DNA of 39,304 nt from an uncultured Gammaproteobacteria bacterium. GTDB lineage: Bacteria; Patescibacteriota; Microgenomatia; UBA10105. Below the pieces are notes generated by a model, which saw nothing but the letters and a program-made list of their open reading frames with translations, searched no databases and had not been told where the DNA came from. The position numbers were made by a program, and so were the translations under genes. The DNA is taken from the NCBI GenBank assembly GCA_964387625.1, contig CAYLWN010000002.1, positions 39,120 through 78,423 on the forward strand. The letters run 5' to 3'. Positions within the stretch are counted from its first letter, which is position 1; the number at the start of each line of letters is the position of its first letter. This document shows, one piece after another, positions 802 to 39,097 of this stretch.

Positions 802-1160
802 TTAAATTTCCTAAAGCAATTTTAAAAAACATCGAAGATGCCTTGCAGGTTGAAAAAAAACAGGTATTAATTCAAATATCCGATTTATCTGCACAAGATC
901 CTTTTTCTGATATTGACAGACTCAATGATAATGCTGCTTCAGATACTGAAGCTAAAGAAGAGACAGATCACGAAAGATATCAAGCATTACTCACTGAATT
1001 AAAAAGTAAACAAGATGCCATTGATGCGGCTTTAAAGCGGATTGATAAAGGAAATTACGGTTCCTGCGATAATTGCGGTTATTTGATAGATACAGATAGA
1101 TTAGCAGCATTGCCTACAGCTACCTTGTGTGTTAATTGTGAAAACAACAAAAAACACTGA
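798..1160 (+). CDS. TraR/DksA C4-type zinc finger protein
   Basis: Coiled coil followed by AALKRIDKGNYGSCDNC...RLAALPTATLCVNC. ATGA overlap with the lgt stop. Confidence 0.9.
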   Translation: MIKFPKAILKNIEDALQVEKKQVLIQISDLSAQDPFSDIDRLNDNAASDTEAKEETDHERYQALLTELKSKQDAIDAALKRIDKGNYGSCDNCGYLIDTDRLAALPTATLCVNCENNKKH

Positions 1161-1196
1161 TTTTCTAAAAAATTACAACATAACATCTCCTGACTT

Positions 1197-1964
1197 ATGC
1201 AAATAAAAATTCTTTACCAAGATCCTCATTTACTAGTTATTGATAAACCTTTTGGAATTGTAGTTAATCGGGCTGATACAGTAAAAGAAGACACTGTACA
1301 GGATTGGGTGGAAGCTGAATTAAAGATTAACCCGCCTGCTAACGCTTTGCGTAAGCAAATGCGGGCAGGAGATTTAAGATTAAAGAATAAAGATAATGAA
1401 GATTTTTATAATCGAAGTGGAATTGTGCACAGATTAGATAAAGAAACTTCAGGATGCTTGATAATTGCAAAAGATTTTGACAGTTTTATAAAACTACAAC
1501 AAGCTTTTAAAAATCATGCAGTTAAAAAAGAATATATTGCTTTAGTTCACGGGCAACTCAAAATAACTAGCGGTGATATCAATGTACCAATTGGTCGGCT
1601 TCCTTGGAATCGGGAAAGGTTTGGCGTTGTTCCTGGAGGTAAAGCATCACACACCAAATTTTTGGTAACTAATTTCTACCAAAAGGATAAAGAAAATTTC
1701 AGTTTGTTGAAATTGATGCCGACTACAGGTAGAACTCATCAAATACGCGTACATCTTAAATATTTAGGTTATCCTATTGTTGGCGATTATTTATATGCCG
1801 GTAGAAAATTACAGGCACATGACAGAAAATGGTGTCCCAGAGTTTTTTTACATGCTACAAAAATTTCTTTTCCACACCCTCAAACAGAAAAAGAAGTTAC
1901 TATCGAAGCCAAATTACCACTAGATTTACTGCAAATTCTTGAAAGTCTTACGAAAATTAACTGA
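1197..1964 (+). CDS. RluA/RluD-family pseudouridine synthase (no S4 domain), carrying a 13-codon palindromic insertion
   Basis: Motifs VIDKPFG, GIVHRLDKETSG (catalytic Asp), TGRTHQIRVH, PIVGDYLY and LHA. Confidence 0.95.
   Translation: MQIKILYQDPHLLVIDKPFGIVVNRADTVKEDTVQDWVEAELKINPPANALRKQMRAGDLRLKNKDNEDFYNRSGIVHRLDKETSGCLIIAKDFDSFIKLQQAFKNHAVKKEYIALVHGQLKITSGDINVPIGRLPWNRERFGVVPGGKASHTKFLVTNFYQKDKENFSLLKLMPTTGRTHQIRVHLKYLGYPIVGDYLYAGRKLQAHDRKWCPRVFLHATKISFPHPQTEKEVTIEAKLPLDLLQILESLTKIN
1331..1369. repeat. 39-bp GC-rich palindromic element, in frame in the RluA-family gene
   Basis: CCCGCCTGC-taacgctttgcgtaagcaaat-GCGGGCAGG. Same ends and length as 38559-38597. Confidence 0.9.
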
Positions 1965-1977
1965 TATCAGTATTATT

Positions 1978-1996
1978 TACTGAGCTTGTCGAAGGG
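1978..1996. repeat. REP-like unit, CTGAGC-n-GTCGAAG family
   Basis: tactgagcttgtcgaaggg. Related copies at 36267-36290 (reverse), 39100-39131 (reverse, degenerate) and 39142-39161. Confidence 0.65.
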
Positions 1997-2017
1997 TATT
2001 AATTCTTTTTATTTGCT

Positions 2018-2184
2018 GTTACTTTCTCTGCATGCTCCAGAGAAAGTAACCAAAGAGAAGGCAAACCCGTGAAGGTTTTGCAATTTTTCTAAATTCAGAT
2101 AATCAGGTGGAACCTCGGACTATTCAGCCGTATCCACACTTTTATCTTTCATTAAGAAAAATTATGCAAAACACTTCAAGGGTT
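2018..2184. other. Structured intergenic element: 13-bp hairpin plus ~120-nt irregular stem-loop (ncRNA or MITE-like repeat)
   Basis: gttactttctctg (2018-2030) pairs perfectly with cagagaaagtaac (2038-2050). 2064-2090 pairs with 2155-2184 with bulges. Inner agataa/ttatct, gtgga/tccac and cgg/ccg helices. Confidence 0.6.
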
Positions 2185-11605: not shown

Positions 11606-12613
11606 ATGACAAATTTATTTACTTATATTGATGATTTTTTGGAATTTTTAGAAGTTGAAAAAAATGTATCTCCATTAACCATCCGAAACTACAAACATTA
11701 TTTGATGAGATTTGCCAACTGGTATAAAGAATCCTCTCCCCTGCCTGCGCCTGACTGCCTGCCTACGCAGTCAGGCGTAGGCAGGCAGTCAGGCCTTTCA
11801 GGTGTCTCTCAAATAAATTCTGACACGATCAGACATTACAGATTATATTTAACCAGGTTAACAGATACACATAATTTGACTCTTAAAAGAGTGACCCAGA
11901 ATTATCATTTGATTGCACTGCGGGCTTTTTTACGGTTTTTAGTCAAGAAAGATATTAAAACTTTGGCTCCCGAAAAAATTGATCTAGGCAAGACAGAATC
12001 GCATAGTTTGAAATTTTTAAATAAAGATCAATTAACACGTTTGGTTAATCAACCGGATATAGCTACTGTTTTCGGCTTGAGGGATAAAGCGATACTGGAA
12101 TTATTATTTTCTACAGGTTTACGGGTATCAGAACTGGTGAAACTAAACCGTGATCAAATAGATTTTACGACACGGGAAATCGGTATTATCGGTAAAGGTG
12201 GTAGAGCCAGGGTGGTATTTATTTCAGACGCCGCATCAAAGTGGTTGCAACGATATTTAAGTTATAGAGAAGATAAATACAAACCTTTATTTGTCCGTTA
12301 TTCAGGAAAAAAAGTTACCAAAGATCAAGGCGAAGAAGGAATCAGGTTATCAGCCAGAAGTATTCAAAGATCTGTTGAAAAATATGTAAAAAAAGCTAAA
12401 TTGCCTATCAAAATTACTCCTCATGGGTTACGGCATACATTTGCCACGGATTTGTTGACAGCAGGAGCTGATATCAGGGCCATACAAGAAATGTTGGGAC
12501 ATAAAAATATTTCCACTACTCAAATATATACACACGTTACCAATCCGCAACTTAAACAAATCCATAAAAAATTCCATGGAAAAACTGAAATAGTTGAAGA
12601 TGCAATTAAATAG
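11606..12613 (+). CDS. XerC/XerD-like tyrosine recombinase with an 18-codon palindromic insertion
   Basis: SAM-like N-domain. Catalytic motifs TGLRVSEL, GKGGRAR, TPHGLRHTFAT and LGHKNISTTQIYTH. Confidence 0.95.
   Translation: MTNLFTYIDDFLEFLEVEKNVSPLTIRNYKHYLMRFANWYKESSPLPAPDCLPTQSGVGRQSGLSGVSQINSDTIRHYRLYLTRLTDTHNLTLKRVTQNYHLIALRAFLRFLVKKDIKTLAPEKIDLGKTESHSLKFLNKDQLTRLVNQPDIATVFGLRDKAILELLFSTGLRVSELVKLNRDQIDFTTREIGIIGKGGRARVVFISDAASKWLQRYLSYREDKYKPLFVRYSGKKVTKDQGEEGIRLSARSIQRSVEKYVKKAKLPIKITPHGLRHTFATDLLTAGADIRAIQEMLGHKNISTTQIYTHVTNPQLKQIHKKFHGKTEIVEDAIK
11740..11793. repeat. 54-bp compound CCTG...CAGG palindrome in frame in xer
   Basis: Perfect 20-bp IR 11749-11768/11775-11794, with an alternative 19-bp IR 11740-11758/11767-11785 (1 mismatch). 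Confidence 0.9.
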
Positions 12614-12617
12614 ATAG

Positions 12618-13367
12618 ACAGGTCGGACCTGTTATGGAGATGGATGTGATGATATAAATTAAATTTTTATCGTATATGCCGGCAAAAAATTCTATAAAAC
12701 AATACGTTGAAAATAGCTTCTATCATATTTACAATCGGGGCGTTGATAAACGAATAATTTTTATTCAGGATTTAGATTATCAAATGTTTCTTTCATATTT
12801 AAAAAATTACTTGTCAACATTGTCTTTACAACAGGTCCGGCCTGTAAGAAAATCCACTCTTTTTTTAGAAATTGATTTAATCGCTTATTGTCTGATGCCA
12901 AATCATTTTCATTTATTGATTAAACAAAAATCAGCCAAATCAATAATTAAATTTATGCGTTGTTTAACAAATGCATACACGCGATATTTTAATACCAGAC
13001 ATAAAAGAATTGGTCATTTATTTCAAGGAAAATATAAAGCAAGTTTAATAACAGAAGATTTATATTTACTACAACTATCTCGTTATATACATAGAAATCC
13101 ATTAGAGTTATTCAGGTCAGACCTGCATAAAATATTGTCAGAATACCCTTATTCAAGTTATAAAGATTTTTTAGGATTAAGAAACACTGTTTGGGTGAAG
13201 CCAAATGAAGTATTAAATTTTTTTGCATTAGATAAGCAAAAAAATAATTTAGATTTAAATTATCAAGGTTTTGTTGAACAATTTAATAAAGACGAAAATG
13301 ATATAAACGAATTTATCTTAGAAGACAATGTCGAATGATAACAATCTAAACAACAGGTCCGATCTGT
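12618..13367 (+). mobile_element. RAYT module: Y1 transposase bracketed by inverted 15-bp palindromes, with two more copies inside the gene
   Basis: ACAGGTCGGACCTGT (12618-12632), ACAGGTCCGGCCTGT (12831-12845), CAGGTCAGACCTG (13113-13125) and ACAGGTCCGATCTGT (13353-13367). Confidence 0.8.
12676..13338 (+). CDS. REP-associated tyrosine (Y1/HUH) transposase, IS200/IS605 TnpA superfamily
   Basis: YHIYNRG, AYCLMPNHFHLL (HUH), YFN...GHLFQGKY, YIHRNP (catalytic Tyr) and YPYSSY. Confidence 0.92.
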   Translation: MPAKNSIKQYVENSFYHIYNRGVDKRIIFIQDLDYQMFLSYLKNYLSTLSLQQVRPVRKSTLFLEIDLIAYCLMPNHFHLLIKQKSAKSIIKFMRCLTNAYTRYFNTRHKRIGHLFQGKYKASLITEDLYLLQLSRYIHRNPLELFRSDLHKILSEYPYSSYKDFLGLRNTVWVKPNEVLNFFALDKQKNNLDLNYQGFVEQFNKDENDINEFILEDNVE

Positions 13368-38485: not shown

Positions 38486-39097
38486 ATGAAGATGCTAAGA
38501 TTTATGAGAAATTCAATAATCCAGAATCCCTGCCTCGCCGGCAGGCAGGCAGAATCCACCCGCCTGCCATCGCTATGCTCAAGCATTAGCGGGCAGGGAA
38601 TCACTAGAGTTGGTTTTACCTTGGTTGAGACTTTGGTTACACTTGTTTTAATAGGAACAATTGGTTTAATTGCTTCAATTTCTTTGTTTAATTTGTTATC
38701 AGGAAGTGCAAAAACCGAAATTGTTAAAGAAATCAAACAAAATGGAGACTACGCCTTATCAACAATGGAGCAAAATATTAGAAATGCAACTGATGTGTAT
38801 TATTTAGTAGGAGGTGTAAAAACATGTGCAGGTACATCTATCGACCTTTACATTATTCAACCTTCACAACCTGCAACACCGATTCATTATTCCTGTTCTT
38901 CTGGAAGTTTATATGTTGATGGAAATAGTTTGACTAGTGATAAAGTTGTCGTTAATCCCTGCACAGGAGTTTTTACCTGCAATAAGGATGTTAATGGTTT
39001 ATATAAAAATGTAATTATTAATTTTGTTTTGGAAGACGCACAAAACTCATCTGTCAGTCAGACATATAAAACAGAAATCAGGTTGCGAAATAAGTAA
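38486..39097 (+). CDS. Minor pilin (PilW/PulJ-like) with a leader lengthened by two palindromic insertions
   Basis: VG|FTLVETLVTLVLIG, IRNA and C-terminal LRN. The start could be ATG 38504. Confidence 0.88.
   Translation: MKMLRFMRNSIIQNPCLAGRQAESTRLPSLCSSISGQGITRVGFTLVETLVTLVLIGTIGLIASISLFNLLSGSAKTEIVKEIKQNGDYALSTMEQNIRNATDVYYLVGGVKTCAGTSIDLYIIQPSQPATPIHYSCSSGSLYVDGNSLTSDKVVVNPCTGVFTCNKDVNGLYKNVIINFVLEDAQNSSVSQTYKTEIRLRNK
38529..38597. repeat. Two CC(T/C)G...CAGG elements (21 bp and 39 bp) within a (CCAGAAT)3 array
   Basis: cctgcct-cgccggc-aggcagg (38529-38549) and cccgcctgc-N21-gcgggcagg (38559-38597). Confidence 0.92.

What the first reader, a model, noticed from the sequence alone, without database searches (positions are those of the whole stretch)
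1316..1395. 39-bp element in the RluA-family gene has a twin 37 kb away, and excision restores an (ATTAAAG)n array
Seen: CCCGCCTGC-taacgctttgcgtaagcaaat-GCGGGCAGG and CCCGCCTGC-catcgctatgctcaagcatta-GCGGGCAGG (38559) have identical 9-bp ends and equal-length 21-bp cores, each with an inner hairpin (tttgc/gcaaa vs atgc/gcat). Removal gives attaaag attaaag atttaag attaaag aataaag and the protein ELKIKDLRLKNKD instead of ELKINPPANALRKQMRAGDLRLKNKD, shortly before the catalytic HRLD motif. The two copies are read in different frames. Inference: the conservation is at the level of DNA/RNA structure, not peptide.
Basis: partly seen in the sequence, partly recalled or inferred. Interest (0 to 1): 0.75.

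Follow-up and report, generated by a model that had tools for sequence, protein, structure and literature searches.

The report
Tiny GC-rich hairpin repeat inside genes
The 39-base insert in the pseudouridine synthase gene is one copy of a family of very small GC-rich hairpin repeats scattered through this ultra-small groundwater bacterium, its relatives and some phage contigs, and it survives inside genes only where an in-frame 12-14 residue insert falls in a loose loop.

Summary
Window 1331-1369 and 38559-38597 are both CCCGCCTGC-N21-GCGGGCAGG, 31 of 39 bases identical, with 0 such pairs in shuffles.

They are not a special pair. This 1.24 Mb Microgenomates-like genome holds 26 such loci. 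The same arms occur in 20 of 41 relatives and 46 of 401 genomes of the phylum, with a reversed-pattern control of 0. They also occur in MAGs of other phyla and in IMG/VR viral contigs.

None of 149 RluA orthologues or homologues carries the 13 residues. The closest shown, P0002, differs by exactly +13 aa. The insert lies in a low-confidence loop.

Copies inside long ORFs are almost always multiples of three (14 of 15 against 18 of 35). They are read in different frames and on both strands.

A three-stem hairpin shows one compensating pair.

Best reading: a REP/RPE-like selfish hairpin element that inserts precisely and is translated through. The enzyme that moves it is unknown. The ATTAAAG array belongs to a recurrent period-7 flank pattern.

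Copies are enriched beside tRNA genes, inside tRNA fragments.

The parts
1331..1369 (+). Element copy 1 (39 nt). The left arm CCCGCCTGC is 1331-1339, the core is 1340-1360 and the right arm GCGGGCAGG is 1361-1369. It is translated in frame as residues 45-58 of the RluA-family protein.
   Evidence: Sequence, pattern match, fold, and the covariance-model hit at E 6e-8.
1197..1964 (+). Host gene: an RluA-family pseudouridine synthase of 255 aa. The element sits in the variable loop between helix 34-42 and helix 65-72, about 20 residues before HRLD.
   Evidence: ORF. Pfam PF00849 at E 2.8e-28. AlphaFold2 model with mean pLDDT 89.7, and 66/57/67 for residues 41-70. Orthologue alignments.
1316..1330 (+). 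Left flank of copy 1: two units of the imperfect 7-base repeat (ATTAAAG-like).
   Evidence: Period-7 score across the junction is 15.
1370..1395 (+). Right flank of copy 1: three more units of the same 7-base repeat, in phase with the left flank once the element is removed.
38559..38597 (+). Element copy 2 (39 nt). It has the same arms and a core that is 13 of 21 identical to copy 1. It is read in another frame as TRLPSLCSSISGQ, upstream of the G|FTLVE motif of a pilin-like ORF.
   Evidence: and (E 3e-6).
38486..39097 (+). Host ORF of copy 2: a 203-aa protein with a type IV pilin-like N-terminus (GFTLVETLV). Both GC-rich inserts lie in the presumed leader. Naming the leader motif rests on recalled knowledge, because Pfam gave no hit.
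   Evidence: for the ORF. for no Pfam family at E <= 0.001.
38528..38549 (+). A second, different GC-rich palindrome (CCCTGCCTCGCCGGCAGGCAGG) lies 9 nt upstream of copy 2. It is flanked by the direct repeat CAGAATCC at 38522-38529 and 38550-38557. It belongs to the more abundant CCTGCCTGC/GCAGGCAGG family.
   Evidence: The 9-mer census counts 76 occurrences of CCTGCCTGC/GCAGGCAGG.
12676..13338 (+). A Y1 (HUH) IS200-like/RAYT-like transposase gene, one of three in the genome. It is listed only as a candidate trans-acting enzyme. It is flanked by ACAGGTCSGAYCTGT hairpins at 12618-12632 and 13353-13367, not by the element.

Best explanation
The 39-bp stretch is a copy of a family of very short (mostly 36-42 nt) GC-rich hairpin repeats. 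They behave as selfish, REP/RPE-like mobile DNA.

Every copy has the same 9-nt arms, CCCGCCTGC and GCGGGCAGG. Between them is a variable core that keeps a three-stem hairpin: CCCGC/GCGGG, then TGC(N)/(N)GCA, then NNGC/GCNN. A 4-nt unpaired tail, CAGG, follows.

New copies are inserted precisely, adding exactly the element's own length. Most land between genes. A copy inside a gene survives only if three things hold: its length is a multiple of three, it carries no stop in the frame it lands in, and it falls in a permissive loop, linker or leader. It is then transcribed and translated as 12-14 extra residues.

That is the state of the RluA gene (a loop before the catalytic HRLD) and of the pilin-like leader.

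Shown here: the family, its spread, its absence from orthologues, the 3n rule, the loop location and the hairpin.

Inferred: that it moves as DNA, probably as a folded single strand handled in trans by an enzyme not yet identified. The Y1/RAYT-like transposases are the only candidate I found, and the link is weak.
For: Family and spread:
- 19 exact-arm copies in this genome, with a reversed-pattern control of 0.
- 23 copies when one mismatch per arm is allowed.
- 26 loci by covariance model.
- Each arm 9-mer occurs only 25-26 times in the genome, so nearly every occurrence is paired in an element.
- The same arms occur in 20 of 41 relatives (13 of 22 genera) and 46 of 401 genomes of the phylum (41 of 320 genera; control 0).
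- The genomic context differs from genome to genome.

Insertion, not ancestry:
- 0 of 29 orthologues and 0 of 120 homologues carry the peptide.
- The closest homologue shown (P0002) differs by exactly 13 aa in the loop.
- 2 of 120 homologues carry independent insert signatures in the same loop: P0018 with PAR..AGG and P0064 with PPA..RAG.
- Two nested copies exist, element within element, at C3:7294-7377 and C25:1873-1951.
- A filled site at C15:2281 matches an empty paralogous palindrome at C4:65486 (CCTCGGGCT|TGACCCGGGG), with no duplication.
- A filled and an intact tRNA-Pro D-loop lie side by side with no duplication.

Translated, not spliced:
- 14 of 15 copies in long open frames are 3n, against 18 of 35 elsewhere (Fisher p 0.0046).
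- No convincing gene is broken by a non-3n copy.

Permissive sites: the RluA loop, the GlmS N-terminal insert region, the Fpg inter-domain region, the transketolase N/Pyr linker, the L7/L12 hinge and the pilin-like leader.

Structure: the three-stem fold pairs 94.6% of cells. Pair 11-21 appears as UA 9, AU 7, GC 2 and GU 1. The covariation score is 0.110 against 0.058 in shuffles (0 of 500 shuffles as high). The rival full-arm fold does no better than its shuffles.
Against: - No mobility was seen directly. In 4 metagenome runs from different samples, every contig that bridges 1331-1369 keeps the element, and there is no joint without it. Contigs hide rare variants.
- No enzyme is tied to the element. 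The three Y1 genes of this genome, and several of those in relatives, are flanked by other hairpins. Ten of 46 element-bearing genomes of the phylum sample have no Y1 match (hand cross-tabulation). G039 has 6 copies and no Y1 match. Zero of 5 element-rich viral contigs have one. No IS110-type or reverse-transcriptase gene was found.
- Arms that are invariant across a whole phylum, and apparently beyond it, could instead mean a conserved host function.
- Only one base pair truly covaries.
- Flanking direct repeats of 5 nt or more are enriched (22 of 181 against 4 of 362). Precise insertion without duplication does not explain this.
Confidence: 0.72

Rival explanations
1. The element is a conventional cut-and-paste or copy-and-paste MITE. 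It would be moved by a DDE transposase that makes a staggered cut and leaves a 7-bp (sometimes 9-bp) target-site duplication. On this reading the ATTAAAG-like array is one or more such duplications.
For: The arms are imperfect inverted repeats, 7 of 9. Junction-adjacent direct repeats of 5 nt or more occur in 22 of 181 copies against 4 of 362 control junctions (p 5e-8). Period-7 or period-9 repetition across the junction occurs in 8 of 178 copies against 1 of 356 controls (p 9e-4). There are perfect 7-mers such as CGAACTA|CGAACTA and GTTAACA|GTTAACA.
Against: All three filled-versus-empty comparisons show no duplication: C15 against C4, the tRNA-Pro D-loop, and RluA at +39 nt exactly against P0002. 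A 7-bp duplication added to 39 or 42 nt would break the reading frame of RluA and of the transketolase ORF. Only about 12% of copies show any flanking repeat, and its length varies from 5 to 9 nt. No longer element with the same ends exists in this genome, since nearly every arm occurrence is paired at short range. Nine-base arms are very short for a DDE transposase; this last point is recalled, not tested.
Confidence: 0.1
2. The copies are functional cis-elements kept by the host, or by phages. They would be a protein-binding site or an RNA hairpin acting in termination, processing or mRNA stability, for instance around tRNA operons. The copies inside genes would be by-products.
For: The arms are identical across 46 of 401 genomes of the phylum, across MAGs named as other phyla, and across viral contigs. 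Copies are enriched within 150 nt of tRNA genes: 7 of 24 copies against 1.2% of the genome (p 9e-9), and 6 of 29 copies in relatives' loci. In viral contig G041, five of six copies lie between the longest ORFs, inside a larger repeated unit; two of these overlap only short ORFs on the opposite strand. The hairpin is conserved.
Against: Positions are not conserved between genomes. The distribution is patchy, and 355 of 401 genomes have no exact copy. Copies occur in both orientations and in protein loops, where a regulatory role is unlikely. The copies next to tRNA genes lie inside broken tRNA fragments, not in spacers of intact operons. No Rfam family matches.
Confidence: 0.12
3. The element is removed at the RNA level, as a mini-intron or intervening sequence. 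Proteins and tRNAs would then be made without it.
For: It is a stable hairpin with fixed ends. It is found inside tRNA-like sequence at D-loop and T-loop positions. CPR bacteria are known for insertions in rRNA genes; this point is recalled, not checked here.
Against: Removing the element in silico from all 23 loci restores no additional tRNA gene in ARAGORN. The hosts are fragments next to intact genes. Copies inside ORFs obey the 3n, no-stop rule (14 of 15), which splicing would make unnecessary. No non-3n copy sits inside a clear gene.
Confidence: 0.03

Closest known systems
REP elements and REPINs moved by RAYT (Y1/HUH) transposases: the GTAG-tagged palindromic repeats
   Same: Both are short (20-40 nt) imperfect GC-rich palindromes with an unpaired 4-nt tag beside the stem. 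Both are dispersed in tens of copies, fall into sub-families with different stems and loops, and occasionally lie inside coding regions. For REPs those regions include pseudouridine synthase genes (PMC3733652, passages read). Insertion here appears to leave no target duplication. RAYT-like genes are present in this genome. Their presence is associated with the element across the phylum sample: 36 of 46 genomes against 145 of 355 (hand cross-tabulation; Fisher test).
   Different: The tag is CAGG/CCCG, not GTAG. The Y1 genes here are flanked by other hairpins. The copy number is low (26 loci, against the >100 per genome stated in the abstract of PMC2817692, seen in the listing). Most copies are single, not inverted doublets. 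The same arms occur across a phylum and in viral contigs, whereas REPIN-RAYT systems are described as mostly vertically inherited (abstract of the RAREFAN preprint, seen only in the listing).
CGTC-tagged palindromic repeats, which include Rickettsia RPE-4 and RPE-6 and Neisseria dRS3
   Same: These form a superfamily found in five phyla, with no dedicated transposase identified, and they also occur inside coding regions (PMC3733652). That is the situation here: a wide spread and no enzyme flanked by the repeat.
   Different: Those repeats have 8-9 bp stems that start with A-T pairs, 4-5 nt loops, a CGTC tag and a CCA tail (PMC3733652). The element here has invariant CCCGCCTGC/GCGGGCAGG arms, three stems and a core of 12-30 nt or more.
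Rickettsia palindromic elements (RPE-1 type), the 'selfish DNA in protein-coding genes'
   Same: Both are in-frame insertions of a palindromic repeat into many unrelated proteins at tolerated surface positions, in an AT-rich reduced genome. A pseudouridine synthase gene (truB of R. conorii) is among the RPE-1 hosts (PMC3733652).
   Different: RPEs are about 100-150 bp by my recollection (not checked here) and are confined to Rickettsia. This element is 36-42 bp and adds only 12-14 residues.
Bacterial MITEs
   Same: Both are non-autonomous, have inverted-repeat ends and are dispersed. Some copies here have flanking direct repeats.
   Different: No parent IS with the same ends was found. The size is below the usual MITE range. 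No target duplication is seen in three filled-versus-empty comparisons.
Mobile GC clusters of yeast mitochondria and double-hairpin elements of fungal mitochondria.
   Same: Both are very short GC-rich palindromes that spread through an AT-rich genome and are found in intergenic DNA, in variable parts of RNA genes and occasionally in frame in a protein gene.
   Different: Those elements are organellar and have unrelated sequences. Nothing here was tested against them.

Membership tests
REP/REPIN-RAYT system | A short imperfect palindrome of 20-40 nt, present in many dispersed copies | tested here: met
   Copies are 30-45 nt with hairpin folds. There are 26 loci in this genome.
REP/REPIN-RAYT system | A conserved GTAG (or CGTC) tetranucleotide at one end | tested here: not met
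   The ends are CCCG... and ...CAGG in every copy. Tag definitions are from PMC3733652.
REP/REPIN-RAYT system | Repeats flank the cognate RAYT gene | tested here: not met
   Two of the three Y1 genes of G000 are flanked by GGTCSGACC-type hairpins and the third by other inverted repeats. Several relatives' Y1 genes are flanked by CAAGG..CCTTG hairpins. Only C38 has an element nearby, 217 nt upstream of a Y1 gene.
REP/REPIN-RAYT system | Mostly extragenic, arranged as inverted doublets (REPINs) | tested here: inconclusive
   Most copies are intergenic singletons. Six of 21 copies in G000 lie in long ORFs. One inverted pair, C3:9125 and C3:9276, lies 113 nt apart.
MITE | Terminal inverted repeats | tested here: met
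   The arms are inverted repeats at 7 of 9 positions. The two mismatches are themselves invariant.
MITE | A target-site duplication of fixed length | tested here: not met
   Three filled-versus-empty comparisons show no duplication. Flank repeats are enriched, but only in 22 of 181 copies, and they are 5-9 nt long.
MITE | A parent IS with the same ends | tested here: not met
   The arms occur 25-26 times in the genome, nearly all paired within 64 nt. The genome is 89.9% complete, so a parent could be unassembled.
Rickettsia palindromic elements | In-frame insertion into unrelated protein genes at tolerated positions | tested here: met
Rickettsia palindromic elements | Sequence family and size (about 100-150 bp, Rickettsia) | tested here: not met
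   Copies here are 36-42 nt in a Patescibacteria genome. The RPE size is recalled.
Any Rfam RNA family | A match at the gathering score | tested here: not met
   There are 0 matches in the whole window at gathering thresholds. Around copy 1 there are only chance-level hits with E >= 0.57.
tRNA intron (group I or bulge-helix-bulge) | Removal restores a complete tRNA | tested here: not met
   ARAGORN finds the same tRNAs with and without the element at all 23 loci. No new tRNA appears.

The most novel reading that the evidence does not exclude
The element is the substrate of an unrecognised single-strand hairpin insertion system. That system spreads horizontally, with phage contigs among its carriers, through Patescibacteria and other groundwater phyla. 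It inserts without target duplication and has a preference for the D- and T-loops of tRNA genes. Each such hit would force replacement of the tRNA gene and leave the broken fragment beside the new copy. That would make it a third 'tag' class of REP-like repeats, with a measurable effect on tRNA gene turnover and on loop evolution of essential proteins in ultra-small bacteria.
Probability: 0.25. Interest if true: 0.75.

Novelty: new variant of a known kind. Interest (0 to 1): 0.55.

Why it matters
Candidate-phyla-radiation bacteria have tiny, gene-dense genomes, so any repeat that can sit inside essential genes is a visible force on their evolution. Here those genes include RluA, GlmS, Fpg, transketolase and perhaps L7/L12.

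The family gives a clean natural experiment on which protein loops tolerate 12-14 extra residues. The same RluA loop carries insert signatures in three different lineages.

It is also a sequence tag, 18 invariant bases, that is shared by distant lineages and phage contigs. It may therefore trace horizontal DNA flow in aquifers.

For annotation, knowing the family prevents two errors: mistaking these inserts for lineage-specific protein motifs, and miscalling the adjacent tRNA fragments.

If the enzyme is found, it would extend the REP/RAYT picture to a new tag class and to a phylum where none has been described. My searches found no paper describing such a repeat in these bacteria.

Tried and rejected
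- Expression: no RNA holder was listed among 20 runs.
- Presence/absence polymorphism: I laid the contigs of 4 DNA runs on window 900-2100. All bridging contigs keep the element and there is no joint. Contigs cannot show rare variants, so this leaves mobility open.
- tRNA-intron idea: in-silico excision restores no tRNA at any of 23 loci.
- Preference for hairpin loops as a general rule: flank stems of 5 bp or more occur in 16 of 179 copies against 20 of 358 controls (p 0.15), which is not significant. It holds only for individual cases: tRNA arms, C12, C15, L053.
- Rfam: nothing.
- Other enzymes in this genome: IS110-type DEDD transposase 0 matches and reverse transcriptase 0 matches. The genome is 89.9% complete.
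- Y1 transposase on element-rich viral contigs: 0 of 5, all fragments estimated 27-74% complete.
- Y1 against element among the 41 relatives: 18 of 20 against 14 of 21, p 0.13, not significant (my cross-tabulation; test).
- DNA-uptake-sequence idea (single arms scattered through the genome): rejected, because the arm 9-mers occur almost only in pairs.
- Literature by sequence words returned only unrelated papers such as primers and human loci.
- The full-arm 'register 0' fold is not supported by covariation.
- The first Pfam call failed on wrong coordinates. It was repeated with exact ORFs.
- Complex prediction, fold search and the protein atlas were not used, because no claim here needs them.
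Full report
**1. The observation**

Window 1331-1369 reads CCCGCCTGC-TAACGCTTTGCGTAAGCAAAT-GCGGGCAGG. Window 38559-38597 reads CCCGCCTGC-CATCGCTATGCTCAAGCATTA-GCGGGCAGG. Both are on the + strand.

With up to three mismatches these are the only two matches in the 39.3 kb window. One hundred dinucleotide-preserving shuffles gave none. The copies share 31 of 39 bases.

Copy 1 lies in a 255-aa ORF (1197-1964). Pfam calls it an RNA pseudouridylate synthase (PF00849, E 2.8e-28). Copy 2 lies near the start of a 203-aa ORF with a pilin-like GFTLVETLV N-terminus. That ORF has no Pfam hit, and the motif name is recalled.

The window averages about 33% G+C, so the 39-mers are conspicuous GC islands.

**2. 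A family, not a pair**

The window is C2:39120-78423 of a 1.24 Mb, 86-contig, 89.9%-complete assembly. The closest RluA homologues are named Microgenomates, Gottesmanbacteria or Patescibacteria by their sources. The DNA is held by groundwater and soil metagenome runs.

- The exact arms with a 12-30 nt core occur 19 times in this genome. The same pattern read backwards occurs 0 times.
- One mismatch per arm gives 23 copies.
- A covariance model built from 23 distinct 36-nt copies finds 29 matches at 26 loci. These include two long-core variants of 63-64 nt and a second nested copy.
- Each arm 9-mer occurs only 25-26 times in the genome, so the arms hardly exist outside elements.
- Lengths are 30, 36, 38, 39, 40 and 42 nt, plus the longer forms.
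- Some cores are the reverse complement of others between unchanged arms. The C8:27612 core matches copy 2 at 16 of 21 positions when reversed and at 8 of 21 as written.

**3. Spread**

- Exact-arm copies occur in 20 of 41 related genomes, in 13 of 22 genera.
- They occur in 46 of 401 genomes sampled evenly from the phylum, in 41 of 320 genera. The control is 0 throughout. This genome has the most copies of those sampled.
- Sub-families with identical cores recur in different families of bacteria, but the flanks differ.
Those with flanks above about 60% G+C look like chance matches. Eighty-two distinct junctions with flanks at or below 60% G+C were kept from this scan, many with family-type cores. 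They come from several CPR groups and from MAGs named Desulfobacteraceae, Gammaproteobacteria, Bacteroidota, Kiritimatiellia and others. I cannot exclude mis-binned contigs.
There are up to six copies on one 25.7 kb contig.
- On that contig, five of six copies lie between the longest ORFs, inside a larger repeated unit. Two of those five overlap only short ORFs on the opposite strand. The sixth, 33 nt long, lies inside a 2065-aa ORF.

**4. It is an insertion in RluA**

- None of 29 orthologues from related genomes has the 13 residues. The segment between QDW.E and RSGIVHR varies from about 17 to over 30 residues.
- The 50 aligned database homologues show the same picture. The closest one shown (P0002, 63-67% identity) has a loop exactly 13 residues shorter.
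- Of the 120 best homologues, two carry the peptide signature expected from translating the arms, in the same loop. They have different cores, and one is in the opposite orientation: P0018 PARLAESERAGG and P0064 PPASEFAHRRSRAG. Their DNA could not be fetched. If these are element copies, the loop has been hit at least three times independently.
- An AlphaFold2 model made from the 51-sequence alignment is confident overall (mean pLDDT 89.7, pTM 0.87). It drops to 66, 57 and 67 for residues 41-50, 51-60 and 61-70, which is the insert and its surroundings.

**5. Copies inside genes are read through**

In this genome the element also lies in these hosts (sequences, families):

- GlmS
- Fpg/MutM, between the N-terminal and H2TH domains
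- the linker between the Transketolase_N and Transket_pyr domains
- a multi-pass membrane ORF on C62, three times
- possibly the L7/L12 hinge, as a 30-nt copy with one mismatch that may be a chance match in an Ala-rich hinge

The translated peptides come from several frames and both strands.

I pooled 21 copies of this genome with 29 from relatives' loci. Of the copies with at least 40 open codons on both sides, 14 of 15 are multiples of three, against 18 of 35 of the rest (p 0.0046). This test partly selects for 3n by construction, so I also asked whether excision creates long ORFs. Only two marginal cases appeared, at 42-46 codons. The simplest reading is that frameshifting copies in genes are lost and in-frame ones are translated.

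**6. Structure**

Single copies fold at -18 to -19 kcal/mol, with z between -2.5 and -3.2. Three registers are possible because the arms are CCCG-CCTG-C and G-CGGG-CAGG.

On 23 distinct 36-nt copies, the three-stem fold (1-5/28-32, 7-9/23-25, 11-14/18-21) pairs 94.6% of cells. Pair 11-21 occurs as UA 9, AU 7, GC 2, GU 1 and other 4. The covariation score is 0.110 against 0.058 ± 0.009, with 0 of 500 shuffles as high.

The full-arm fold does no better than its shuffles. This is one covarying pair, so the support is modest. The rows were chosen by Hamming distance of 6 or less from the commonest core, which limits the variation that can be seen.

**7. How it inserts**

Three filled-versus-empty comparisons show precise insertion with no duplicated target:

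- The palindrome CCTCGGGCT|TGACCCGGGG is intact at C4:65486 and split by the element at C15:2281.
- The tRNA-Pro D-loop CAGTTGG|TAGAAT is intact in the gene and split in the adjacent fragment.
- RluA gains exactly 39 nt.

Yet flanking direct repeats of 5 nt or more next to the junction occur in 22 of 181 distinct copies with flanks at or below 60% G+C, against 4 of 362 control junctions. Period-7 or period-9 repetition across the junction occurs in 8 of 178 copies against 1 of 356 controls. The RluA copy is the fifth strongest case.

I read it as a property of favoured sites, namely short tandem repeats. I do not read it as a duplication made at insertion, because 39+7 or 42+7 nt would break the frames of RluA and of the transketolase ORF. 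This point stays open.

Flank hairpins are not enriched overall (16 of 179 against 20 of 358).

**8.

Seven of 24 copies lie within 150 nt of a tRNA gene, where 1.2% of the genome lies (p 9e-9). The figure is 6 of 29 copies in relatives' loci.

These copies sit in the D-loop (..GG|TAGA.. or ..CTCA|GTTGG..) or the T-loop (..GTTC|GA..) of partial tRNA copies beside an intact tRNA. The partial copy matches the isoacceptor of its neighbour:

- Val(cac) on C6
- Pro(tgg) on C80
- Leu(cag) and Val(tac) on C3
- Ala on C25

. Excision restores no tRNA.

I infer that hits in tRNA genes are survived only when an intact copy replaces the gene, leaving the broken piece behind. The route is not shown.

**9. 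What moves it**

This genome has three Y1 (IS200-like/RAYT-like) genes. One is in the window (12676-13338) and one lies 217 nt from an element on C38. They are flanked by GGTCSGACC-type or other repeats, not by the element. Several of the relatives' Y1 genes that I fetched are flanked by CAAGG..CCTTG hairpins.

I cross-tabulated the phylum sample by hand. Y1 is present in 36 of 46 element-bearing genomes and in 145 of 355 others (odds ratio 5.2, p 2e-6). Related genomes are not independent, and genomes rich in mobile DNA may carry both.

Ten element-bearing genomes lack Y1. G039 has six copies and none. Five element-bearing viral contigs have none.

The enzyme is therefore unknown. Y1 is a lead only.

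**10. Comparison with what is known**

Short tagged palindromes are described in PMC3733652 (passages read): GTAG REPs with RAYTs, and CGTC repeats without a known transposase, including Rickettsia RPE-4 and RPE-6. That paper reports them inside coding regions, including pseudouridine synthase genes.

The present family works like these, but it fails the tag and RAYT-flank tests and has its own architecture.

- Rfam has no matching family.
- A full-text search for the arm sequences returned only unrelated papers.
- Searches combining CPR/Patescibacteria terms with REP, RAYT and MITE terms listed no paper describing such repeats in these bacteria. I saw listings only.
- The RPE and MITE papers were also seen only as listings.

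**11. Verdict**

The thing is a new variant of a known kind: a REP/RPE-like hairpin repeat.

Its unusual features are:

- its very small size
- invariant arms across a phylum and on phage contigs
- cores that can flip between fixed arms
- repeated hits in one RluA loop
- a strong association with broken tRNA copies

Noticed in passing
G000 C3:7280-7400, C3:9100-9330, C6:330-400, C80:1340-1440, C25:9250-9330 (loci L367-L371): Element copies sit in the D-loop or T-loop of partial tRNA copies, directly beside an intact tRNA of the same isoacceptor. On C3 an intact tRNA-Val(tac) lies between the 5' and 3' pieces of an older tRNA-Val, and each piece carries an element. The same arrangement appears in relatives (L051, L073, L076).
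   Followed up: partly
window 38522-38557: A different 22-nt palindrome, CCCTGCCTCGCCGGCAGGCAGG, lies in the same pilin-like leader and is flanked by a perfect 8-nt direct repeat, CAGAATCC. Its family (CCTGCCTGC/GCAGGCAGG) is the most over-represented 9-mer in the genome, with 76 occurrences.
   Followed up: partly
window 11606-13367: An ORF that looks like a XerC/D-type recombinase (11606-12613; named from its sequence only, not checked with Pfam) carries a 65-nt cluster of CCTGCC-type palindromes in frame (about 11731-11795). A Y1 transposase-like gene (12676-13338) follows it, bracketed by ACAGGTCSGAYCTGT hairpins (12618-12632 and 13353-13367). The GGTCCGACC/GGTCGGACC 9-mer occurs 26 times in the genome.
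   Followed up: partly
window about 2007-2100: The intergenic stretch after the RluA gene has 5-10 times the contig depth of its surroundings in all four runs laid, with many loose ends. It is therefore another multi-copy repeat.
   Followed up: no
G000 C3:7294-7377 and C25:1873-1951: A second element type has arms like CCCGCCAG...GCGGGCTGG, with the T/A of the arms exchanged in a compensating way. It is found twice, each time inserted inside a copy of the main element.
   Followed up: no
G000 C21:6338-6379 (L365): In the transketolase ORF the element lies just before the Transket_pyr domain, and the last three bases of its core form an in-frame ATG (..PMAGRRTNVSTRKAFGEAL..). The element may therefore supply a start codon, or fuse two formerly separate subunit genes. 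It is flanked by a perfect 7-nt repeat, CGAACTA.
   Followed up: no
G000 C8:13966-14970 (L364) and C62:241-1758 (L363): The Fpg/MutM gene carries both a CCTGCC-type palindrome and the element in one inter-domain stretch. A membrane-protein ORF on C62 carries three copies of the element, plus other GC-rich stretches read through in frame.
   Followed up: no
L023 (G040:C31) and proteins P0018, P0022, P0032, P0036, P0065: RluA orthologues in other lineages carry other, unrelated-looking inserts in the same loop, for example SRPPSRDPVKEKHGFRVKPGMT. The loop appears to be a general sink for insertions.
   Followed up: no
G000 C41:2705-2768 and C15:2281-2343: Long-core variants (63-64 nt) have the same arms and an AT-rich centre. 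The C15 copy splits another palindromic repeat exactly at its loop.
   Followed up: partly
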